The notes below the pieces were generated by a model. It made no database searches, was not told the origin of the DNA, and saw only the letters and a list, made by a program, of their open reading frames with translations. Shown here one piece after another: positions 9,449 through 25,025 of a stretch of DNA of 64,000 nucleotides (within the stretch, counting starts at the first letter, position 1; every line of letters begins with the position of its first letter). A program made the translations under genes and the position numbers. The stretch is taken from sequence record MT446407.1; one strand, 5' to 3'. Source of the stretch: Escherichia virus TH34.

Positions 9449-9524
9449 GCACCCTTAGCTCAATGGATAGAGCAGCGACCTTCTAAGTCGTTGGTTACAG
9501 GTTCGAGTCCTGTAGGGTGCACCA
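9449..9524 (+). tRNA. tRNA-Arg: tRNA-Arg (anticodon UCU)
   Basis: Cloverleaf by eye: acceptor GCACCCT/AGGGTGC, D-arm GCTC-AATGGATA-GAGC, anticodon loop CUUCUAA, T-arm CAGG-TTCGAGT-CCTG, encoded CCA. Confidence 0.8.
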
Positions 9525-15723: not shown

Positions 15724-16522
15724 GCGTGCTTTCCTTATTGGTTCTGACCCTGAAATGTTTGTTCGTACTGCTTCTGGTGTTATCACCTCTGTGGCTGGTA
15801 AGCTGGGCTGTTCTAAAGATAACAAAATCGATCTGGCCCCTGATGTTCGTCTTCAAGAAGACAACGTTCTGGCTGAATTTGATATTAACCCACAGAAAGG
15901 GTTCGAAGCGTTTGATGATAACATCCAGCGTGGTATTGATCTGACCAACAAAGTTCTTAATGAACGTGGTATGGAAGCTGCACTTGGGATTAGTTCTCAT
16001 GTGTACACTTCTGAAGAGCTGCAATCATTCCATCCATCAGCCTTTGTGTTTGGCTGTACTCCTGATTTCAACGCCTTCACTGGTCAGAAAAACCCATCTC
16101 CGGTAGCGACAGACAAAGGTCTGCGTACTGCTGGCGGTCACGTACACCTCGGTGTTGCAGGGTCTTTGGAAGTAACTCGACAGACTCAGATGATGCTGGG
16201 TGTTCTCTGTGATTACTTCCTGTCACTTCCAGCAGTAATTATGGATAAGGACACTCGTCGTAAAGAGCTTTACGGCAAGGCATCTGCTATTCGTTATAAA
16301 GATTATGGTATTGAATACCGTTCTCTGTCGAACTTCTGGATTGGTGAACAGTCCACTCGTAAGTTTGTTTACGATCAAGTTGATAAGGTTATTCAGGGCT
16401 GTGATATGGAAATTCTCATGTCTCTGCACTCCCGTCTGCCTATCGAAAAGCTTCACAACATCATCAATAGCAATGATGTTAAAGAAGCGGATAAGTTCTC
16501 CTCTAAACTCCAGATTATCTAA
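15716..16522 (+). CDS. amidoligase-like (glutamine-synthetase-fold COOH-NH2 ligase) protein
   Basis: ATG 15716 with GGAG upstream; acidic IGSDPEMFV segment and GGHVHLG resemble the phage amidoligase family. Confidence 0.45.
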   Translation: MTKRAFLIGSDPEMFVRTASGVITSVAGKLGCSKDNKIDLAPDVRLQEDNVLAEFDINPQKGFEAFDDNIQRGIDLTNKVLNERGMEAALGISSHVYTSEELQSFHPSAFVFGCTPDFNAFTGQKNPSPVATDKGLRTAGGHVHLGVAGSLEVTRQTQMMLGVLCDYFLSLPAVIMDKDTRRKELYGKASAIRYKDYGIEYRSLSNFWIGEQSTRKFVYDQVDKVIQGCDMEILMSLHSRLPIEKLHNIINSNDVKEADKFSSKLQII

Positions 16523-16531
16523 GGTGTTATC

Positions 16532-17158
16532 GTGAGCCTGTTAAGAGATTTTCAGCATTATTATTGCGGAACATGGATTGCCCAACGTGCAGAACGAGGG
16601 ATTAATTTACCTCTTTATGTACTCAACGTGAACCAAGCAAACCGCTTTGGAGAAGATGACTTCTCTCACGAAGCAGAAATGGCCTTAACTTTTGAAGTTG
16701 AACGCTGGTCTAAGAACGCCGAAGGGCAGTTTGAACGACAGGTTGTTCAGGGCATTCCTGTGTTTGATCAAAGCCTTATTCTGGAATCTCCAGATGTGGG
16801 ATACTTACAACACGGCAACAACATGGTAAGCTGGACTCATATCAACCCTGTTCGTCAGCGAGCTAAGGGTCTGATGGGGAACAAATTACGTGGTGCACCT
16901 CCTTCAATGGGTCGTTCGATTCCGGGAGAGCTGGTGTATAATCTGTTTAATCCTGACTTCGAAGGTCTGGTTACTCGCTTCATCTACATCAACCCTGTCG
17001 ATGGTAAAGTTTATTACAAAGGGGCACTTGTAGGTCAAGTTGATCTTTCTGCTGGTTACGGCGACAATGGTCGTCAATCTTTAAATCTTCTGGAGAAGTT
17101 CAAGCATATTTCTTCAGATCTGTCATCATATAATGTAGAGTTGGTGGAAACGTTATGA
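16532..17158 (+). CDS. hypothetical protein (208 aa), amide-ligase cluster
   Basis: GTG 16532 with AAGGTG upstream. Confidence 0.5.
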   Translation: MSLLRDFQHYYCGTWIAQRAERGINLPLYVLNVNQANRFGEDDFSHEAEMALTFEVERWSKNAEGQFERQVVQGIPVFDQSLILESPDVGYLQHGNNMVSWTHINPVRQRAKGLMGNKLRGAPPSMGRSIPGELVYNLFNPDFEGLVTRFIYINPVDGKVYYKGALVGQVDLSAGYGDNGRQSLNLLEKFKHISSDLSSYNVELVETL

Positions 17159-18255
17159 CAACCGTAGCACAAGTTTTTGGATACCGTAATGCTCGTCTGG
17201 CTGAGCCGCACCCAAGCATCGCTTTTCAGTGTGGTATTGGCATCGAGCTGGAAGTTGAAGGAACCTCTGAAATTGATGCAGACCTTTGGGTTTGTACTGA
17301 AGATGGTTCACTTCGTGATGGCTGTGAGATGGTTTGTGCACGGCCTTACAACGGTGTAGAATTGCTTAGTGCTATTAACAATCTGAGTGAAGCAGTACAA
17401 GACTCTGAAGCTGAAGGGACTTGGCGCTGCTCTACTCACGTTCATATGGATATGCGTGACGCTGATAGTAACATCCTGAAGAAAGTAATTCTTGGATGGA
17501 CGTTCTATGAAAAGATGATGTTCAAATGTTCTGGATACCATCGCTATCGTAGCAACTTCTGTCCTGCCTTTGCTGTTGTTCAAGCACAGGTAATGAATGC
17601 TTCCGCAGCGTTCAACCGAGATGGTGAAGCCTTCTTCAATACTCTTGTTAATAGCTGGGACAAGTACACCTCCCTTAACCTATTACCTCTGGCTCAGTTT
17701 GGTTCTGTTGAATTTCGTATCTCAGAGCCAAAGTGGAAGAAAAGCCAACTCCTTAATCTGGTCAACCGCTTCTTAGTTCTCAAGAAACTGGCTGTTGAGT
17801 ATGCAGATTTGGATAATGAAGCATATGTTGAGAAACTGAATGAGCTACGCTTCGCTCCTATGATTCAGTATCTGCCTCTGGACTACACACCTAATGATGA
17901 TGACCTGACTGGTGGTTATCGTTTGGCTCGTGATATTCTGTTCTGTCGTGAACATTCTGTTACTCTGGTTGGTCGTGTTCGTGTACAGCAGACCGGACCT
18001 GATGGTGAAATCCTTATCAACTTGCGTGATATGGGTGACTTCTACGGTTTCTTGGGATATGTACGTGGTAATGCCAACTCTATTTATGAAGAGATCATGA
18101 CCTATTACACCCCTCAGATTGAAAACACTCGAATCGCAACGGTTCGTGAAATTCGTCACATGTTTGCTCTGATGCGTGAATCAGGTAGCAGTGATGATAA
18201 CGTCACTGGTTACATTCCAGACCATCTGGAAATGCAATTAGAACGACTGCTGTAA
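17155..18255 (+). CDS. amidoligase-like (glutamine-synthetase-fold COOH-NH2 ligase) protein, second copy
   Basis: GIGIELEVEG...EDGSLRDGCEMV...STHVHMD resembles the amidoligase family; ATGA-coupled. Confidence 0.45.
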   Translation: MTTVAQVFGYRNARLAEPHPSIAFQCGIGIELEVEGTSEIDADLWVCTEDGSLRDGCEMVCARPYNGVELLSAINNLSEAVQDSEAEGTWRCSTHVHMDMRDADSNILKKVILGWTFYEKMMFKCSGYHRYRSNFCPAFAVVQAQVMNASAAFNRDGEAFFNTLVNSWDKYTSLNLLPLAQFGSVEFRISEPKWKKSQLLNLVNRFLVLKKLAVEYADLDNEAYVEKLNELRFAPMIQYLPLDYTPNDDDLTGGYRLARDILFCREHSVTLVGRVRVQQTGPDGEILINLRDMGDFYGFLGYVRGNANSIYEEIMTYYTPQIENTRIATVREIRHMFALMRESGSSDDNVTGYIPDHLEMQLERLL

Positions 18256-18332
18256 CACAATGGGCGCTCTGATAAAGGGCGCATTTAAAGGTTAATTAGA
18301 TGAAAGGGTTTACCCTTCAGGTGGATTAGAAA

Positions 18333-20366
18333 ATTTGTGGTATCGTATTAGCTGGGGGCAACATGACCTCCACAGACTTAGACGTATTCAACCAGCTTCT
18401 GTATGCTGGAGTCTTCCGTGGTCAGCACTCAACTGGTGTGTTCGGTCAGCGTAAAGGTGATGAAAAAGTATTTTCTTATAAAGAAGCACTTCCTTCCTAT
18501 GCCTTCATGCTCCAGACAGGGTACACGAATCTTACTAAGGGGCTTACGAACTATGTAGTTCCTCCATCGTGGATTGTTGGTCATAGCCGACATGCCACAC
18601 GTGGTGCGGTCAATGCTCGAAATGCTCACCCATTCTCTCATGGTGACATTACTCTGGTTCATAATGGTACACTGTTAGATCAGGAACTGTTACCAGATCA
18701 TAAGAATTTCGAAGTTGATAGCGAAAACATCTGTCATTCAATCAACACCATCGGTGCAGCAGAGACTATCCAGAAGTTGGATGGTGCGTTCACTTTAATC
18801 TGGCATGACGCCAAAGACAATACTCTGCATATCATTCGTAACGATGAACGTCCTTTCCATCTGGCCCGTTGTGGTCTAGATTGGTTTGGTGCTTCTGAAG
18901 AAGATATGTTGATGTGGATTCTTAATCGTTCCAAGTCACACAAGAACCGTATCAATGATCACTTTGAGTGTAAAGTGGGAACTGAATACATCTTTGATTT
19001 GTCTGGCAACCGTATGACTCTGACTCAAGAGGTGGAGCACAAGCTTCCGGTTTTTACGGTAACGAGTCGCTGGGGCGGCTATTACTCGAACTCTTCTCTG
19101 TATCAGAACCAACAGACAAACAAATCAAGCAGCAGCACAAGCGACATTTACGGAAACAAAGACGACAAGCCCGGCGTGACAAGCGGAGACATTCGTCGTC
19201 GTAAAGCGATTGAAGATCAGAATAAACTGGCTGCCGATCGTGGTCTTCCGTATCGTCGTGACGGTCGTGTGGATATCATTCCTCATGAGTTCCACGCTTA
19301 TAACAACACTGACCGTGGTAAGATGGTTGGTTATATTTATGATGATGCTGCTCAAGAGTATGTTGAGGGTGATGTTCATAATGTAGCCAAGAGTGAATAC
19401 TTGAAGGCTCTCGAAAACCCAAAGGTAGTGTATCGCGGGACAGTTGCTTGTATCTCCGAAGTGGACAGTATGATTCGCCTCGTACTCACTTCAGGGCTGT
19501 TTGTTGATGCTACCGATAAGGAGCCTCAAAGCACTACCGCTGATTTTGATGATGATATCCCTTTTGATTTAGAAGACTCCTTCATCACTAAGAATGGTGT
19601 GGAAGTCACCCGTAAGTTCTGGGAATCACATTCTCATGGTGATTGTGGCGGTTGTGACAAGCATATTGAATGGAAAGATGCTAAGAAAGCTGTGTTCGCT
19701 TACCAAGCATATTGGCATCCGGCCTGTTTCGAAGCATTGTCCAAACCGTCTGAAGAAGATGAAGACATTCCTTTGGGTGTCTGTGCTGTATGTGGCAATG
19801 TTAAAACTGATTTCGAGTTTGATAACGAAATGAGTAAACTTCGTGGTGAAGATATTTGTTATGTCTGTGCCAAAGAGATCAAAGACAAAGTGACTAACAC
19901 TACATTGTCTGAAGGTTACATTTGGACTAAAGCAGTTGACACAACCAACCCACGTCGCCCTGAAGTAGCAGTTCGTGTTGATCAGCGTATGCTTAGCCGG
20001 ATGATTGTAATGGTCAGCTCAGCTAAACGTTCTGGTGACATTGAATTGTCTGATGTTCCAAATTCTTATTTGGAAAAACGTGGTGGTGATACCTATGCCA
20101 TCTCTGTTTATGGTCCAAAGAATGCCCCAAAGGAGGTGCCCGCTGAGAAAGCGGAAACATTTCCAGAAAAGCAAACAACTCTCCGAAAAACAGTTGTCAG
20201 TTACGACGGACAACGAACAGCTGAGTTCACAAAAGCCCTCTGGACTTCAATTGGGTTTTGTGCGGTCTGTTATAAACAAATTCCGTGGCGTGATGCAGAA
20301 ATTTGCTCACTGAACAAAGAAAACAGGGTGATCTGTAATTCAGATTACTGTAAAGGTAAACATTAA
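18333..20366 (+). CDS. class-II (Ntn-type) glutamine amidotransferase domain fused to Cys-rich zinc-ribbon-like C-terminal region; probable AUU start
   Basis: VGHSRHATRG..NAHPF..LVHNGTLLD matches GlmS/PurF-type GATase motifs; CGIV nucleophile lies 9 codons upstream of first ATG (18363), right after ATT 18333 and behind AGGTGGA; C-terminus has 5+ CxxC pairs. Confidence 0.5.
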   Translation: MCGIVLAGGNMTSTDLDVFNQLLYAGVFRGQHSTGVFGQRKGDEKVFSYKEALPSYAFMLQTGYTNLTKGLTNYVVPPSWIVGHSRHATRGAVNARNAHPFSHGDITLVHNGTLLDQELLPDHKNFEVDSENICHSINTIGAAETIQKLDGAFTLIWHDAKDNTLHIIRNDERPFHLARCGLDWFGASEEDMLMWILNRSKSHKNRINDHFECKVGTEYIFDLSGNRMTLTQEVEHKLPVFTVTSRWGGYYSNSSLYQNQQTNKSSSSTSDIYGNKDDKPGVTSGDIRRRKAIEDQNKLAADRGLPYRRDGRVDIIPHEFHAYNNTDRGKMVGYIYDDAAQEYVEGDVHNVAKSEYLKALENPKVVYRGTVACISEVDSMIRLVLTSGLFVDATDKEPQSTTADFDDDIPFDLEDSFITKNGVEVTRKFWESHSHGDCGGCDKHIEWKDAKKAVFAYQAYWHPACFEALSKPSEEDEDIPLGVCAVCGNVKTDFEFDNEMSKLRGEDICYVCAKEIKDKVTNTTLSEGYIWTKAVDTTNPRRPEVAVRVDQRMLSRMIVMVSSAKRSGDIELSDVPNSYLEKRGGDTYAISVYGPKNAPKEVPAEKAETFPEKQTTLRKTVVSYDGQRTAEFTKALWTSIGFCAVCYKQIPWRDAEICSLNKENRVICNSDYCKGKH

Positions 20367-20377
20367 GAGGTGAAGTT

Positions 20378-20611
20378 ATGGAAGTTCGTAAATTGATGTT
20401 GGATAACGTTGTAACCACTCGACGTATCCCAATGACAAGCACAGGATGTGATAACCTTCGAGCTATTCAGAAATGGATGCAAGAAGGTATTGGGGGACTG
20501 GTTAACTCTCCAGTTGAAATCCCTTTCCCAACCGTTATCAATAACGTGTTGGCTGACTATGTGAAATTGAAGGGGATTAAAGTTGAGCCTCATGTCAAGC
20601 AAGGGAGCTAA
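20378..20611 (+). CDS. hypothetical protein (77 aa)
   Basis: ATG 20378 with AAGAGG upstream. Confidence 0.45.
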   Translation: MEVRKLMLDNVVTTRRIPMTSTGCDNLRAIQKWMQEGIGGLVNSPVEIPFPTVINNVLADYVKLKGIKVEPHVKQGS

Positions 20612-20813
20612 GCCTCACCTGACAATGCTGGAGTATCAACAACTCCGACTTCAACAACTGGTAACGGAGCAGCGAAAGCTGTATCCGTTTGCTTTTAACC
20701 TAATTGATTCACCAAGCGATGACCAAGAAGACGAGATGTTCTCCAAGTATTGGGAAATCGAAGTTAAAATTCAATCCTGTCGTAACGAAATTCTTAAACT
20801 AAAAGGTATCTAA
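20592..20813 (+). CDS. hypothetical protein (start uncertain)
   Basis: Track ORF starts TTG 20583; first ATG at 20592. Confidence 0.35.
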   Translation: MSSKGAKPHLTMLEYQQLRLQQLVTEQRKLYPFAFNLIDSPSDDQEDEMFSKYWEIEVKIQSCRNEILKLKGI

Positions 20814-20815
20814 AA

Positions 20816-22063
20816 ATGACTACTCGTATCCGTGTTCTTCCGTATGGCCCTTCTGATTCTGTTAACGCTCTGGTAACTGCCATTAGTGATACTATCCGTG
20901 ATGAACGTATCAACGCTAACGTAATGGGTCTTCTTTCTGAGAACAGTCGCTGGCGTTCTCGTGAGGGTGATGTGGTTGTGAACTACGGGAACCGCCGCTA
21001 TCCTGAATCCTTCTTTGGTTCTGCAACTGTTCTTAACCGTACCGCAGCCTTACACATGGCAGCGAACAAACGTCGTGCTTTCAGCGTGATGGACCAAGCA
21101 GGTGTTAAAACTGTTGAGTATACAGATGTTCAAGAGATTGCTCAGGAGTGGTCAAACTCTGGCAACATTGTGTATGAACGTCATGAACTGACTGGTCACT
21201 CTGGTTCGGGTATTATTGTTGTTGAGCCTCGTGATTCAGTTGGTCAAGCTGAACTGTACACCAAAGGTATTCAAGGCCCACGTCGTGAATGGCGTGTCCA
21301 TGTGTTCAAAGGTGCAATCACCTATGTTCAGAAGAAAATTCGTCGTAATGGTTATCGTGAAGACCCTAACTATCGTGAAGATGTTCGTAACCATCACACT
21401 GGTTGGGTTTACTCAAGCTCTTTTACGGATGTTCCGAACGATGCATCTCTGATCAACGCAGTGAAGGCCGTTGAATCGATGGGTCTGGATTTTGGTGCAG
21501 TTGATATCATTACTAAAGGTCGAGAAGCATGGGTACTGGAAGTTAATACAGCACCGGGCCTGACTGGTACAACTCTGGATACCTACCGTCACAACATCCT
21601 TGAGTTTGTTAAAGCTCAAAACCCTCTCTATACTCCTCAGTATAAAGTGGTTTACCAGACTCCTGTTGAAGCTCCAATTGAAGATGGAGATGGTGAATTG
21701 GTTGCTGACAGTGAAAGTGCTGATGATGAAAACTTCGCACTGGAAGGCCAAGTCGCACAGCCGGTTGATTCAGTGGATGTAGTTCCTGAAGAAATGCAAC
21801 TGGAAGGTCAGATGAATACTCAGACAATCCGTAATGCACCTACTGGTTATGTGTTGTCTCGTGGTTACTGGATTGCAGATATTCGTCATGTTCATAACAA
21901 CCTGCAACCTAATGCAATGTCTGCCAATGTCATTCTGTTCTGCGATGGTCGTAACTTCTACCGCAGTGGCTGGAACGTTCCGGTTCATCCGCAACAAGTC
22001 CACAACCCTCGTAAGTTAGAGTCTGTAACTGTTGAAGGTAGTGAAGTGGCAGTAACTCTGTAA
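20816..22063 (+). CDS. ATP-grasp fold ligase
   Basis: LDFGAVDIITKGREAWVLEVNTAPGL is a typical ATP-grasp C-terminal motif. Confidence 0.55.
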   Translation: MTTRIRVLPYGPSDSVNALVTAISDTIRDERINANVMGLLSENSRWRSREGDVVVNYGNRRYPESFFGSATVLNRTAALHMAANKRRAFSVMDQAGVKTVEYTDVQEIAQEWSNSGNIVYERHELTGHSGSGIIVVEPRDSVGQAELYTKGIQGPRREWRVHVFKGAITYVQKKIRRNGYREDPNYREDVRNHHTGWVYSSSFTDVPNDASLINAVKAVESMGLDFGAVDIITKGREAWVLEVNTAPGLTGTTLDTYRHNILEFVKAQNPLYTPQYKVVYQTPVEAPIEDGDGELVADSESADDENFALEGQVAQPVDSVDVVPEEMQLEGQMNTQTIRNAPTGYVLSRGYWIADIRHVHNNLQPNAMSANVILFCDGRNFYRSGWNVPVHPQQVHNPRKLESVTVEGSEVAVTL

Positions 22064-22083
22064 TTAAACAAAAGGAATTTGTA

Positions 22084-22326
22084 ATGTTGTCTATCGAAGA
22101 TTTGATCAGTCGTGGAATGACCGAACAAAAAGAACCTCTGATTGTTGGTTCTCGTAAAGCTATTAACCAACTCTGTGAAGAGTTTGGAATCACAAACAAG
22201 AGAATGATTGGTAATCAGTTCTCTGCAATTGTCACCTTCCTTAAACGAGGTGATAAATATTCAATGGAATGTGTTGAGCGTATCATCGCAATTGCACAAG
22301 AAGATAAGGGAGTAACAACTCTGTGA
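22084..22326 (+). CDS. hypothetical protein (80 aa)
   Basis: ATG 22084 with AAAAGGA upstream. Confidence 0.45.
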   Translation: MLSIEDLISRGMTEQKEPLIVGSRKAINQLCEEFGITNKRMIGNQFSAIVTFLKRGDKYSMECVERIIAIAQEDKGVTTL

Positions 22327-22508
22327 ATAAATACACAATCATGTTTCGTACAGTAAACTCAGAAGGTAATATTCAATCTCTAGATATTCAAGCAGATCGC
22401 TTTGAATCACTTGGAACAAGTGTTAACTTCTTCCGAGGAGTAGAGTTGGTAGGTACATTCCAATCTGACGTGTTGACTGGTGTGATCAAACACTTCGAAG
22501 TAGAATAA
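22323..22508 (+). CDS. hypothetical protein (start GTG 22323 or ATG 22341)
   Basis: GTGA overlap with upstream stop. Confidence 0.35.
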   Translation: MNKYTIMFRTVNSEGNIQSLDIQADRFESLGTSVNFFRGVELVGTFQSDVLTGVIKHFEVE

Positions 22509-22573
22509 TTTGCTTTAGCCTCTTCGGAAGAGGGGGCTAGTTCAAATTTAACTGAAACACAAAAGGTAATATA

Positions 22574-23005
22574 ATGTCTGATAAAGTATTAGTAGCAACT
22601 TACGGCAGCTTGAGAAAAGGTCAACACAACCACGCTATCAATGCTCGTGCCGGTGGTGTGTCTATTGGTGAGGGTTGGACAGTGAACAACTGTAACCTGT
22701 ATCAGTATTGCACAGCATACTTCCCAAGTGTGTCTCTGGAGCACGACAGCAATGGCAAGCCTGTTCGTGTGGAAGTATTTGAAACAACTCAAGCTGGTTT
22801 GGAAGGTCCGTATGACGGTCTGGAAGGTTATCGTGGTAAAGACAATCCATACACTTTCTACAATCGTACACTAATTCCAGTAGTGCTGGATAGTGGTGAA
22901 ACTGTGGAAGCATGGATTTATCATATCGACGAAGAACAAGATGTTCTGGTTGAATCTGGCGACTGGACAGCGTATCTGGCAGGTGATCAGGATGACAGTA
23001 ACTGA
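22574..23005 (+). CDS. AIG2/gamma-glutamyl cyclotransferase-like protein
   Basis: N-terminal VATYGSLRKGQHNH matches the YGSL motif of the GGCT/AIG2 fold. Confidence 0.45.
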   Translation: MSDKVLVATYGSLRKGQHNHAINARAGGVSIGEGWTVNNCNLYQYCTAYFPSVSLEHDSNGKPVRVEVFETTQAGLEGPYDGLEGYRGKDNPYTFYNRTLIPVVLDSGETVEAWIYHIDEEQDVLVESGDWTAYLAGDQDDSN

Positions 23006-23198
23006 GCGACAGAAGCTGAGAAAGCTCGAGTCTGACTACTTAAAGTTACGGTGGAAGATTAACCGCTATGACAAGTTTGTCAGTATGCTTGACCGCAATA
23101 AACATTCTGAAGATTTTATCATGAGAACCCAATCAGCTTTACAGGGTTTTAAAAGTCTTCAAGATGATGTGTGGGAAGAAATACGTTCGTTTTATTGA
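22992..23198 (+). CDS. hypothetical protein (68 aa)
   Basis: ATG 22992 with AGGTGA upstream; track ORF 22893 is an overlapping extension. Confidence 0.35.
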   Translation: MTVTERQKLRKLESDYLKLRWKINRYDKFVSMLDRNKHSEDFIMRTQSALQGFKSLQDDVWEEIRSFY

Positions 23199-23234
23199 AG
23201 AAGTCTGCTCAAGGAATTCCAAGGAGGATAGAGC

Positions 23235-25025
23235 ATGTCAAAGATCATTTTAGGGGATACAGGTTGTAAAGAATGTATCTCTCATGGTCGTGATAAGACC
23301 CACAATCACATGATTCTCTTCCGAAACGAAGAGTCCGGTGAAGAGTGGGGCAGTTGTAATCGTTGTGGTAGTTATGAAGTTTTCGAAAAGGGAACAACTC
23401 CTACACCGAATGAAAAGAAAGAACTATCCCCTGAAGAACTCCGAGAGATCTTAGACGATTGCTTAGAGCTGCCTCAGGGTGAGCTTACTCGTCGTTTGAT
23501 TCCTAAAGCTGTCTCTGAACGGTATGAATGCCGTATTGGTTTGAGTCAGACAGATGGGCAAACTCCTGATAGTTACTTCTTCCCTCGTGAACGTGATGGA
23601 AACATTGTTGGTTATGAAGTTAAGCTTCTAGACAGCAAGAAATTCTATTACATCGGCAGTGTTAAAGAAGCTGACCTATTCGGTATGGCTCAAGCACAAC
23701 GCGGGGACGTGTACAACAAGAAGCTCTTCATCTTTGAAGACCCACTCTCTTGTATGTCTGGCTTCCATGTGCTCACTGCGTTCACGAACGCTACAAACAT
23801 CAAACCTGCGTGTGTATCTCTACCGTTTGGTGCAGGTTCAATCTCTTCCGTTCTCTCACGTAACCGTGACTTCTTGAATGGTTTTGAGGAGATTGTGCTC
23901 TGCATGGACAATGATGATGCAGGTGAGATTGCATTAACTAAAGGTCGTGCATTATATCCCCATGTTAAATTTGCTCGTATTCCGAAAGGAACCTTCACTT
24001 ACAATGGTCAAGAGAAGGAAATCAAAGATGCAAATGACATGTTACTCGCTGGTCGAGGTCAAGAGCTATTCAACAATCTGAAATATTCAGCGAAGCGGGA
24101 ATCACCTGCTGGTGCTGTTACTGTCTTTGATTGTTTAGAAGACGCTCTGAAGAAAGCGGAATGGGGTATTCCTTATCCGTGGAAAACTCTGAATGAAATG
24201 ACCTTCGGCATTCGTTGGGGAGAGATGGTTGCAATCGGTGGTGGTGTTGGTTCAGGTAAAACCTTAATCGCACACGAACTGGTAGCATGGCTTTGCCTTG
24301 AGCATGGTTTTAATGGTGGTGGCTTCTTCTTGGAAGAGAAGGTAGGCATGTCTGTTAAAAACATTGCAGGTAAATCAGCATCTGTACCTTTCCACCGACC
24401 TGATGTTGAATATGAGGAATCTCAGCTACGTGACGAAGCACTCCGTTACGCTGACAAGTTCTTCTTGTATGACAACTTCGGACAGAATGAGTGGGATGAT
24501 ATTAAGCAGTGTATTCGCTTCTGGGTAGTTGAGAATCAGTGTAAGTTTATCATTCTTGATAACATCACTGCATTAGTTTCTCACCTAACTCCATCTGAGG
24601 TGAATACAGAAATCAGTAAGATTGCTTCAGAGCTTGCTGGTATGTGTAAGGAATTAGACTTCACTGCTTTTGTATTATCTCACTTGAATGCTCCGGCAGG
24701 TGGTGCTCCTCACGAAGAAGGTGGGCAGGTGAAAGAAGTTCAGTTCACTGGTTCACGTTCACTGATGCGTTGGTGTCAGTGCATCATCGGTTTTGAGCGA
24801 GATAAGCAAGCGGATGGGTTAGGCAAGAACTTGTCAATCATACGACTTCTCAAGGAGCGTAACTACGGTCAGACAGGTGTTTGCTACACCAAGTATATCA
24901 ATGAAACAGGTCGACTTGTAGAACGAGAAGATCACGAAGTTGATGAAGCTAATCCGTTTGTCTTGACCAATGGTGAGGATGCAGCTTCTCTGCTCACACA
25001 AGACGGGGAGGCACGACCTTGGTAA
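23235..25025 (+). CDS. primase-helicase (zinc-ribbon/primase N-terminus, DnaB-type helicase C-terminus)
   Basis: Strong RBS AAGGAGG; N-terminal CxxC..CxxC; Walker [10 protein letters not shown] and Walker B IILDNI. Confidence 0.7.

What the first reader, a model, noticed from the sequence alone, without database searches (positions are those of the whole stretch)
18319..18365. Glutamine amidotransferase gene appears to initiate at AUU so that the catalytic Cys becomes residue 1
Class-II GATases need an N-terminal Cys nucleophile. The first ATG (18363) gives MTSTD..., lacking it. In frame, 10 codons upstream, the sequence reads TAG AAA ATT TGT GGT ATC GTA (stop-K-I-C-G-I-V), i.e. the canonical CGIV N-terminus directly preceded by ATT 18333, with AGGTGGA 8 nt upstream. 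The only way to obtain Cys1 is initiation at AUU (as in E. coli infC) or an unusual mechanism.
Basis: partly seen in the sequence, partly recalled or inferred. Interest (0 to 1): 0.65.

Follow-up and report, generated by a model that had tools for sequence, protein, structure and literature searches.

The report
AUU start codon exposes catalytic cysteine
A phage glutamine amidotransferase gene almost certainly starts translation at the rare codon AUU so that its catalytic cysteine ends up first, and the same AUU/AUC start, with a small hairpin and a strong ribosome-binding site, recurs across this phage enzyme family.

Summary
TAG 18327-29, AAA, ATT 18333-35 and TGT (Cys) 18336-38 lie in one frame. 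No ATG, GTG or TTG can precede the Cys. GGTGGA sits 7 nt upstream of ATT.

The window is a phiEco32-like coliphage (Gordonclarkvirinae). The gene is the phiEco32 gp83 homologue, a class-II (Ntn) glutamine amidotransferase in an amidoligase/ATP-grasp module.

AUU initiation is strongly supported by comparison:
- The leader and ATT are essentially invariant in all 96 relatives.
- The ATG at 18363 is not conserved.
- Codons between ATT and that ATG change synonymously.
- Outgroup phages have ATG-TGT at the same place.

In 110 distinct homologue leaders, 25 have ATT or ATC before the Cys. These carry stronger SDs, and 17 of 25 have a hairpin abutting the SD, against 4 of 77 ATG leaders. The 16-mer GGNGGAUUAGAAAAUU is identical before homologues only 25-41% identical in protein. 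The geometry mirrors E. coli infC (GGAGGA, 7 nt, AUU, with an in-frame stop 3 nt upstream).

The ATT start is already annotated for phiEco32 gp83, but most records truncate the gene. There is no direct N-terminal evidence. The reason for the 55-nt invariant leader is unexplained.

The parts
17155..18255 (+). Upstream gene: Amidoligase_2 (phiEco32 gp84 homologue)
   Evidence: ORF list; Pfam PF12224 E=1.7e-6; annotated as amidoligase in Bas88 and ECBP2.
18264..18282 (+). Intergenic hairpin after the amidoligase stop codon (GCGCUCU-GAUAA-AGGGCGC)
   Evidence: MFE and centroid fold. Pairing is kept with a different sequence (GUGCCUC...GGGGCAC) in other genera. Role not tested.
18286..18340 (+). 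55-nt invariant leader plus start (AAAGGTTAATTAGATGAAAGGGTTTACCCTTCAGGTGGATTAGAAAATTTGTGG)
   Evidence: Longest invariant run in 16400-23500 across 5 genomes of 3 genera; the next longest is 24 nt. 0 of 47 leader positions vary, while 81 of 100 third codon positions vary in the adjacent coding sequence. At least 98.4% identity in 96 GenBank genomes. 90% identity in Aeromonas phage BUCT695, whose protein is 55-57% identical.
18300..18329 (+). Mini-ORF ATG AAA GGG TTT ACC CTT CAG GTG GAT TAG (MKGFTLQVD*), in frame with the GATase and ending 3 nt before ATT
   Evidence: Sequence; ORF scan. Kept in BUCT695 as MKGLTLQAD*, without an SD. Absent in 4 of 6 other carriers of the same SD-spacer-AUU cassette. 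Its AUG lies in the hairpin stem. Probably incidental, but could add termination-reinitiation.
18301..18319 (+). Small hairpin abutting the SD (core AAGGG-UUUA-CCCUU, 18304-18317; extended form UGAA/UUCA)
   Evidence: Folds. In BUCT695 the loop changes UUUA to UUAA with the stem kept. An equivalent hairpin with an unrelated stem sequence sits at the same place in 17 of 25 AUU/AUC leaders but only 4 of 77 AUG leaders. Nearest-neighbour pairs split 17:0.
18320..18325 (+). Shine-Dalgarno GGTGGA (AGGTGGA from 18319)
   Evidence: Duplex with the 16S 3' end is -7.0 kcal/mol. The 7-nt spacer to ATT matches infC GGAGGA-AUAAGGU-AUU.
18327..18329 (+). In-frame UAG two codons before the start
   Evidence: TAG AAA ATT is present in every carrier of the GGNGGATTAGAAAATT cassette. 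It blocks any N-terminal extension of the Ntn enzyme (inference).
18333..18335 (+). ATT: proposed initiation codon
   Evidence: Annotated as the CDS start in phiEco32 gp83, LAMP gp83, Bas88 and Bas89.
18336..18338 (+). TGT: catalytic Cys (residue 1 after Met removal)
   Evidence: Invariant in alignments A2 and A3. Aligns with Cys1 of E. coli PurF 1ecb.
18333..20366 (+). Full GATase CDS (677 codons plus stop): N-terminal Ntn glutaminase domain of about 225 aa, and a C-terminal region of about 440 aa with CxxC pairs
   Evidence: There is no SIS domain, so it is not GlmS despite the database name.
18363..18365 (+). First in-frame ATG, used as the start in many GenBank records; not the real start
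   Evidence: Replaced by CTC or CTG in Nieuwekanaalvirus and Kuravirus. Starting here deletes Cys1.
20378..22063 (+). Downstream partners of the module: DUF7195 (20378-20611), small ORF (20583-20813), RimK-like ATP-grasp (20816-22063)
   Evidence: The same gene order occurs in relatives.

Best explanation
The GATase gene (window 18333-20366) is translated from AUU 18333. Inferred mechanism: the 30S subunit pairs with GGUGGA (18320-25), and the 7-nt A-rich spacer UUAGAAA places AUU in the P site. Initiator fMet-tRNA reads AUU with a third-position mismatch. Deformylase and methionine aminopeptidase then remove fMet (Cys is a permissive second residue; own knowledge), exposing Cys1 as the Ntn nucleophile. 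The AUU is not an accident. It belongs to a selected initiation cassette made of a small hairpin abutting the SD, a strong SD, a 7-nt spacer containing an in-frame UAG, and AUU. This cassette has the same geometry as E. coli infC. Because AUU is discriminated against by IF3 and is sensitive to nutrient state and ppGpp, the cassette most likely sets a low and/or host-state-dependent synthesis rate. The strong SD and the abutting hairpin partly compensate for the weak codon; coaxial stacking of the hairpin on the SD-antiSD helix is my inference. Shown here: sequence, conservation, family membership and the statistical associations. Inferred: the initiation event itself, Met removal, and the regulatory purpose.
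For: Sequence: stop-AAA-ATT-TGT leaves no possible canonical start. Family: class-II GATase with conserved catalytic residues and Cys aligned to PurF Cys1. Conservation: ATT and the leader are invariant in the seven representative genomes read base by base and at least 98.4% identical in all 96 records. The downstream ATG is not conserved. In codons 1-9 there are 5 third-position changes and 1 second-position change, with CGIVLAGG kept. Outgroups have ATG-TGT. Recurrence: of 110 distinct leaders of homologues, 77 have ATG, 16 ATT, 9 ATC, 7 TTG and 1 GTG. The first, unbiased scan gave 11 ATY among 58. None of the first-scan ATY loci has an in-frame canonical start before the Cys, except one TTG inside a hairpin. 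ATY leaders have stronger SDs: median -8.1 against -6.1 kcal/mol, p=5e-5. An abutting hairpin occurs in 17/25 ATY against 4/77 ATG leaders, Fisher p=5e-10. The paired nearest-neighbour test gives 17:0, p=1.5e-5. The cassette GGNGGATTAGAAAATT-TGY is identical before homologues only 25-41% identical in protein. infC reads GGAGGA-AUAAGGU-AUU with the in-frame thrS UAA 3 nt upstream. AUU works at 1-2% of AUG (10.1101/063800) or about 6-8-fold below AUG (PMC3592434). It is sensitive to nutrient limitation and ppGpp (PMC5499595). The protein is made: the SU10 homologue was detected by MS with 9 peptides (PMC4281155).
Against: No N-terminal sequence, toeprint or ribosome-profiling data exist for any member, and the SU10 proteomics gives no N-terminal peptide. 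The SD carries a mismatch (GGUGGA; GGCGGA in BUCT695). A mini-ORF ending 3 nt upstream offers an additional route. SD, start codon and a 5-bp hairpin do not explain why all 55 nt are invariant, so something else also acts on the leader. The family survey rests on metagenomic contigs of unknown host. The second scan was seeded with ATY proteins, and the leaders are not fully independent phylogenetically.
Confidence: 0.85

Rival explanations
1. Termination-reinitiation. Ribosomes translate the mini-ORF (AUG 18300 to UAG 18329), terminate 3 nt before AUU and reinitiate there, so GATase synthesis is mainly coupled to the leader peptide, as at the thrS-infC junction.
For: The mini-ORF is in frame and ends UAG-AAA-AUU, the same 3-nt gap as UAA-GGU-AUU at infC. 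In reporters with the infC junction, reinitiation and de novo initiation contribute about equally (PMC3592434). The mini-ORF is kept in BUCT695. In L199 a 163-codon gene ends at the equivalent UAG, and in L092 an upstream gene ends 4 nt before ATT.
Against: Four of six other lineages with the identical cassette have no ORF with a start codon in that frame. L075, L073 and L084 have no ORF ending nearby. The mini-ORF AUG lies in the hairpin stem, and BUCT695 lacks the upstream AAAGG. At best this is an add-on to AUU initiation, not an alternative start.
Confidence: 0.1
2. UAG readthrough plus propeptide removal. A fraction of ribosomes read through UAG 18327, making MKGFTLQVD-X-KI-CGIV.... The Ntn domain then cleaves off the 12-residue propeptide, as B. 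subtilis PurF removes an 11-residue propeptide (own knowledge).
For: The mini-ORF and the GATase share a frame. Some class-II GATases mature by propeptide removal (own knowledge).
Against: There is no suppressor tRNA in the window; the only tRNA is Arg-UCU. Most other cassette carriers have no upstream ORF to read through from. The SD at the correct distance from AUU would be unexplained. An in-frame stop directly before the start is a family-wide feature, which argues for blocking extensions rather than making them.
Confidence: 0.03
3. The real start is ATG 18363, as in many GenBank records, and the protein is a Cys-less, non-glutaminase protein. The CGIV codons are then untranslated remnants.
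For: Gene callers choose it (ECBP2 and SU7). 'GGGGGCAAC' upstream of it is weakly SD-like.
Against: The ATG is absent in Kuravirus and Nieuwekanaalvirus, where the next in-frame canonical start chosen by annotators is 40-113 codons downstream. Codons 1-9 evolve synonymously. Cys1 and Gly2 are invariant in the family.
Confidence: 0.02

Closest known systems
E. coli infC (IF3) AUU start
   Same: A strong SD hexamer, a 7-nt spacer and AUU, with an in-frame stop codon 3 nt upstream: GGAGGA-AUAAGGU-AUU in infC against GGUGGA-UUAGAAA-AUU here. The non-canonical codon is conserved among orthologues. Expected sensitivity to IF3 rests on established knowledge (10.1101/063800, PMC3592434).
   Different: infC is autoregulated because its product is IF3, and no such feedback loop is evident here. 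The upstream ORF at infC is a real gene (thrS), whereas here it is at most a 9-codon mini-ORF. I saw no comparable hairpin in the infC upstream sequence I read (read by eye, not folded). Here the position of the start is fixed by the need for Cys at residue 2.
E. coli pcnB AUU start
   Same: An inefficient AUU is used to limit synthesis of an enzyme, with SD GAGGUG upstream (Binns and Masters 2002 as cited in PMC3592434).
   Different: The spacer and context differ (GAGGUG-UACU-AUU). There is no conserved cassette and no in-frame stop or hairpin arrangement.
Class-II (Ntn) glutamine amidotransferases PurF, GlmS and AsnB
   Same: Cys immediately after the initiator Met, plus the R / HNG / D catalytic motifs. 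Met removal exposes the nucleophile (own knowledge).
   Different: The cellular genes I know of use ATG (own knowledge, not surveyed here). This protein lacks the SIS, PRTase or synthetase domains and instead has a CxxC-rich C-terminal region.
B. subtilis PurF and GltB propeptide maturation
   Same: An alternative way for an Ntn GATase to obtain Cys1 when the ORF begins upstream (own knowledge).
   Different: That route needs an in-frame ORF with a start codon upstream. Here a stop codon sits two codons before the Cys.

Membership tests
Class-II (Ntn) glutamine amidotransferase | Cys encoded immediately after the initiation codon | tested here: met
   ATT-TGT. Cys aligns to profile position 2 of PHROG 4736 and to Cys1 of PurF 1ecb.
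Class-II (Ntn) glutamine amidotransferase | Sequence-profile match above the curated threshold | tested here: met
   Pfam GATase_6 scores 55.2 bits against a cut-off of 27; GATase_7 scores 25.3 against 25.
Class-II (Ntn) glutamine amidotransferase | Conserved glutamine-site residues (Arg of H-x-R-x-A-T, the Asn-Gly oxyanion hole, Asp) | tested here: met
   R85, H109-N110-G111 and D128 are invariant in A2. They align with GlmS HTRWATHG / HNG / TDTE.
Class-II (Ntn) glutamine amidotransferase | Four-layer alpha-beta-beta-alpha Ntn fold and glutaminase activity | not tested
   No structure prediction was run. Activity is not testable with these tools.
GlmS (the database name 'L-glutamine-D-fructose-6-phosphate aminotransferase') | C-terminal tandem SIS isomerase domains | tested here: not met
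   Pfam finds only GATase domains and a weak LIM hit. The PDB profile hits cover the glutaminase domain only.
Natural AUU-initiated genes (infC type) | No canonical in-frame start available, and AUU conserved in orthologues | tested here: met
Natural AUU-initiated genes (infC type) | SD at a functional distance from AUU | tested here: met
   GGUGGA, 7-nt spacer, duplex -7.0 kcal/mol. The geometry is identical to infC.
Natural AUU-initiated genes (infC type) | Protein N-terminus or initiation complex mapped to AUU; repression by IF3 | not testable with these tools
   Needs Edman or top-down MS, toeprinting, and IF3 titration.
Termination-reinitiation (translational coupling) | A translated upstream ORF terminating within a few nt of the start, conserved with the start | tested here: inconclusive
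   Present in the window and BUCT695. Absent in 4 of 6 other lineages with the same cassette.
Propeptide-processed Ntn GATase | In-frame N-terminal extension with its own start codon | tested here: not met
   An in-frame TAG lies two codons before the Cys. No suppressor tRNA is present.
Known structured RNA family (riboswitch or leader) | Match to an Rfam covariance model | tested here: not met
   No hit near the gathering score in 17800-18800, and no glutamine riboswitch.

The most novel reading that the evidence does not exclude
The unit 'small hairpin abutting the SD, GGNGGAUUAGAAA, AUU' (and its sister GGAGGAUAGUCCC-AUU) may be a dedicated translational control cassette exchanged between phages. 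It would be recognised as a unit, either by the ribosome/IF3 system or by a sequence-specific factor. It would gate synthesis of the Ntn amidotransferase, and possibly other genes, according to the host's translational state. If so it is a distinct class of cis-regulatory element, not just a weak start codon. Three observations point this way: the 55-nt invariant leader, the identical 16-mer before proteins only 25-41% identical, and an identical protein carrying either the ATT-plus-hairpin leader or an ATG leader without hairpin (L143 against L145).
Probability: 0.3. Interest if true: 0.8.

Novelty: new member of a known kind. Interest (0 to 1): 0.55.

Why it matters
1. Only two E. coli genes (infC, pcnB) have experimentally confirmed AUU starts. 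This gene offers a third, phage-borne case expressed in E. coli, with an unusually clean logic, because the Ntn chemistry fixes the start position.

2. Most database records truncate this gene and delete its catalytic Cys, and name it GlmS. Both need correcting, and gene callers should allow ATT/ATC starts before MC(G) Ntn domains.

3. About a fifth of this phage GATase family uses AUU or AUC. The start codon has switched with AUG about 20 times, always together with a stronger SD and usually with an abutting hairpin. That is a natural experiment on how weak start codons are compensated. It makes IF3- or ppGpp-dependent control of a phage early function directly testable.

4. The invariant 55-nt leader marks an unidentified constraint worth an experiment.

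Tried and rejected
- Rfam scan of 17800-18800 at E<=10: only noise, no glutamine riboswitch.
- Sigma-70 promoter and terminator scan: nothing in the leader. The phiEco32 gp36 promoter element tAATGTAtA is only loosely matched, and no promoter is mapped before gene 83 (PMC8948821).
- Suppressor tRNA: none; only tRNA-Arg(UCU).
- Frameshift or bypass: rejected because the UAG, AUU and Cys codon share one frame.
- Leader repeated elsewhere in the window: no.
- A mini-ORF as a conserved leader peptide: not conserved in other cassette carriers.
- Single-sequence phmmer against the PDB found nothing; the family profile did.
- Literature searches for an ATT/AUU start in phiEco32-like phages or phage amidotransferases found no discussion.
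- Iyer et al. 2009 (PMC3268129) is not held.
- Of the 11 matches to GGAGGATAGTCCCATT, about half are chance. L209 and L211/L213 lie inside longer ORFs, and L207 and L208/L210 precede only 6- and 18-codon ORFs.
- No structure prediction was run; fold membership was not in doubt.
Full report
**Observation.** The stretch reads TTCAGGTGGATTAG AAA ATT TGT GGT ATC GTA TTA GCT GGG GGC AAC ATG ACC.
- TAG 18327-29, AAA, ATT 18333-35, TGT 18336-38 and ATG 18363-65 lie in one frame. The frame stays open to 20366.
- Nothing but AAA and ATT separates the stop from the Cys codon.
- GGTGGA (18320-25) lies 7 nt before ATT.

**What the locus is.** The window is a phiEco32-like coliphage. It is 98.5-99% identical to TH42, TH43 and Bas88, 96.5% to ECBP2 (genus Suseptimavirus) and about 90% to SU7 (same genus).
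- The gene is the homologue of phiEco32 gp83.
- Pfam gives GATase_6 at 55 bits against a cut-off of 27, and no SIS domain.
- PHROG 4736 aligns residue 2 to profile position 2.
- A profile of 11 diverse homologues hits the E. coli GlmS glutaminase domain (E=9e-9). It aligns position 1 to Cys1 of mature E. coli PurF.
- C1, G2, R85, H109-N110-G111 and D128 are invariant.
- So it is a class-II (Ntn) glutamine amidotransferase, but not GlmS.
- It sits in a conserved early module: COOH-NH2 ligase, a hypothetical gene, Amidoligase_2, the GATase, DUF7195, a small ORF, and a RimK-like ATP-grasp.
- The module's biochemical role is unknown; published suggestions are summarised in PMC10580990.
- The SU10 homologue was detected by mass spectrometry in that phage's proteomic analysis, with 9 peptides (PMC4281155).

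**Is AUU the start?**
1. The 64 nt around the start are at least 98.4% identical in all 96 Gordonclarkvirinae records.
2. In seven representative genomes of three genera, 0 of 47 leader positions vary, whereas 81 of 100 third codon positions vary in the first 100 codons.
3. The ATG at 18363 is replaced by CTC or CTG in Nieuwekanaalvirus and Kuravirus. In those genera annotators who insisted on a canonical start lost 40-113 codons.
4. Codons 1-9 show five third-position changes and one second-position change, and keep CGIVLAGG(N/S). That is the signature of translated sequence.
5. Outgroup phages have ATG-TGT at the homologous place. These are Proteus 3H10_20, Cronobacter A24, Salmonella SE131, Aeromonas LAh_6, E. 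coli PJNS034 and two IMG/VR contigs at 64-67% identity.
6. The curated phiEco32, LAMP, Bas88 and Bas89 records already start the CDS at the ATT.

**The leader.**
- The run 18286-18340 (55 nt) is the longest invariant stretch in 7 kb compared across five genomes. The next longest is 24 nt.
- It contains a small hairpin (AAGGG-UUUA-CCCUU, extendable to 18301-18319) that ends directly at the SD. After the SD come the spacer UUAGAAA with the in-frame UAG, and then AUU.
- Aeromonas phage BUCT695 belongs to a different family, and its protein is 55-57% identical. It carries the same leader at 90% identity, with a loop change (UUUA to UUAA) and GGUGGA changed to GGCGGA.
- A 9-codon mini-ORF (18300-18329) shares the frame and ends 3 nt before AUU.
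- E. coli infC reads GGAGGA-AUAAGGU-AUU, with the thrS UAA in frame 3 nt upstream. That is the same geometry.

**Family-wide survey.** I collected homologues from IMG/VR with two alignment-derived scans.
- Among 110 distinct leaders, the codon before the catalytic Cys is ATG in 77, ATT in 16, ATC in 9, TTG in 7 and GTG in 1.
- The first scan was not seeded with ATY proteins. It gave 11 ATY among 58 distinct leaders.
- The first-scan ATY loci were checked individually. None has an in-frame canonical start between the upstream stop and the Cys, apart from one TTG inside a hairpin.
- On a rough NJ tree the two states are interspersed, with a Fitch minimum of 22 switches.
- ATY leaders have stronger SDs: median duplex -8.1 against -6.1 kcal/mol, p=5e-5. 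Most have a 7-nt spacer.
- A hairpin (dG <= -3 kcal/mol) ends within 3 nt of the SD in 17 of 25 ATY leaders, against 4 of 77 ATG leaders (Fisher p=5e-10).
- I compared each ATY leader with its nearest ATG relative. The hairpin was present only in the ATY member in 17 pairs and only in the ATG member in none (p=1.5e-5).
- The stems differ in sequence between lineages, with about 20 different stems. Pairing rather than sequence is therefore what is kept.
- In this sample the first 180 residues are identical in one pair, yet one carries an ATT-plus-hairpin leader (L143) and the other an ATG leader without hairpin (L145).

**A conserved cassette.** I searched metagenomes for GGNGGATTAGAAAATT-TGYGGNAT.
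- It returned eight phiEco32-like contigs and six others.
- The six others belong to the same PHROG families. They are only 28-41% identical to the window protein and 25-41% identical to each other.
- All have TAG AAA ATT in frame, and most have their own hairpin abutting the SD.
- Four of these six lineages have no ORF with a start codon running into the UAG.
- So the mini-ORF is not part of the conserved unit, and direct initiation at AUU is the only mechanism common to all carriers.
- A sister 16-mer, GGAGGATAGTCCCATT, is shared by L051 and L071, whose N-terminal domains are 36-40% identical.

**Mechanism (inference from established knowledge).**
- AUU is read by initiator tRNA with a third-position mismatch.
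- Reporter measurements place it at 1-2% of AUG (10.1101/063800) or 6-8-fold below AUG (PMC3592434).
- It competes poorly under nutrient limitation and ppGpp (PMC5499595).
- At the infC junction, reinitiation and de novo initiation contribute about equally (PMC3592434).
- The phage cassette therefore looks like a deliberately weak, condition-sensitive start, partly compensated by a strong SD, optimal spacing and the hairpin.
- The in-frame UAG would stop any ribosome arriving in that frame from making an N-terminally extended, inactive Ntn enzyme.
- After initiation, removal of fMet exposes Cys1 (own knowledge).

**Rivals.**
- Reinitiation from the mini-ORF may add to expression in this phage, but it cannot be the general mechanism.
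- UAG readthrough with propeptide cleavage is unsupported. There is no suppressor tRNA, and most carriers have no upstream ORF.
- Starting at ATG 18363 is contradicted by conservation.
- Frameshifting is excluded by the shared frame.

**Novelty.**
- AUU initiation is a known kind (infC, pcnB). The ATT start of phiEco32 gp83 has been in GenBank in the original phiEco32 record (EU330206).
- I found no paper that discusses it.
- In one search only 7 of the 60 listed records have a CDS covering the start.
- Pseudomonas phage O4, which has an ATC start, is also truncated.
- To my knowledge three things are new: the recurrence of AUU/AUC in about a fifth of the family, its tight association with an SD-abutting hairpin, and the deep conservation of the cassette.
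- All of this rests on comparative evidence only.

**Unexplained.** SD, start codon and a 5-bp hairpin do not account for invariance of all 55 nt, nor for the identical 16-mer across 25-41% identical proteins. A sequence-specific factor or cassette exchange by recombination are untested possibilities.

Noticed in passing
window 18264-18282: A second hairpin directly after the amidoligase stop codon. Its pairing is maintained with a different sequence in other genera (GCGCUCU/AGGGCGC against GUGCCUC/GGGGCAC). It has no U-run, so it is not a classical terminator.
   Followed up: partly
window 18281-18299; L014, L015, L018, L023: The motif TTTAAA(T/G)GT(A/T)AAT(T)AG precedes the SD in both ATG-type outgroups and the ATT clade. 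It resembles the phiEco32 gp36 promoter element tAATGTAtA, but no promoter has been mapped before gene 83.
   Followed up: partly
window 18300-18329: A 9-codon mini-ORF (MKGFTLQVD*) in frame with the GATase, ending 3 nt before AUU. This copies the thrS-infC junction geometry. Its AUG is buried in the hairpin stem.
   Followed up: yes
window 18334-18339: UUG (18334) and GUG (18337) overlap the AUU in the +1 frame. They open a 39-codon ORF here but only 8 codons in Kuravirus. They may be decoy starts competing for the same SD.
   Followed up: no
window 19000-20366: The C-terminal ~440 aa of the protein has several CxxC pairs (CGGC...HPAC, CAVC...CYVC, CAVC...) and only a weak LIM hit. There is no SIS domain, so the common database name 'L-glutamine-D-fructose-6-phosphate aminotransferase' is a misnomer.
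   Followed up: partly
GenBank relatives: Most records annotate a 5'-truncated CDS lacking the catalytic Cys. Examples are ECBP2, SU7, KBNP1711, EP335, Paul, and Pseudomonas phage O4 with an ATC start. Only 7 of 60 listed rows cover the real start.
   Followed up: yes
L203 2457-4790(-), L206 3816-4448(+), L204 2875-3066(-): The cassette GGAGGATAGTCCC-ATT also sits directly before non-GATase ORFs in IMG/VR. These are a 778-aa tail-fibre-like ORF and a 211-aa ORF, both with no canonical start for 14-20 codons and a hairpin abutting the SD. A third is a CsrA-like ORF where a TTG alternative exists. Other matches are chance.
   Followed up: partly
L143 vs L145 (IMG/VR): The first 180 residues of the GATase are identical in the two loci, yet one has ATT plus a hairpin leader and the other an ATG leader without hairpin. 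This suggests leader swapping by recombination.
   Followed up: no
L006 3948-4457 (phage Bas89): An HNH endonuclease gene is inserted immediately downstream of the GATase gene in Bas89. It is absent in the window.
   Followed up: no
window 9449-9524: The single tRNA gene in the window is tRNA-Arg(UCU).
   Followed up: no
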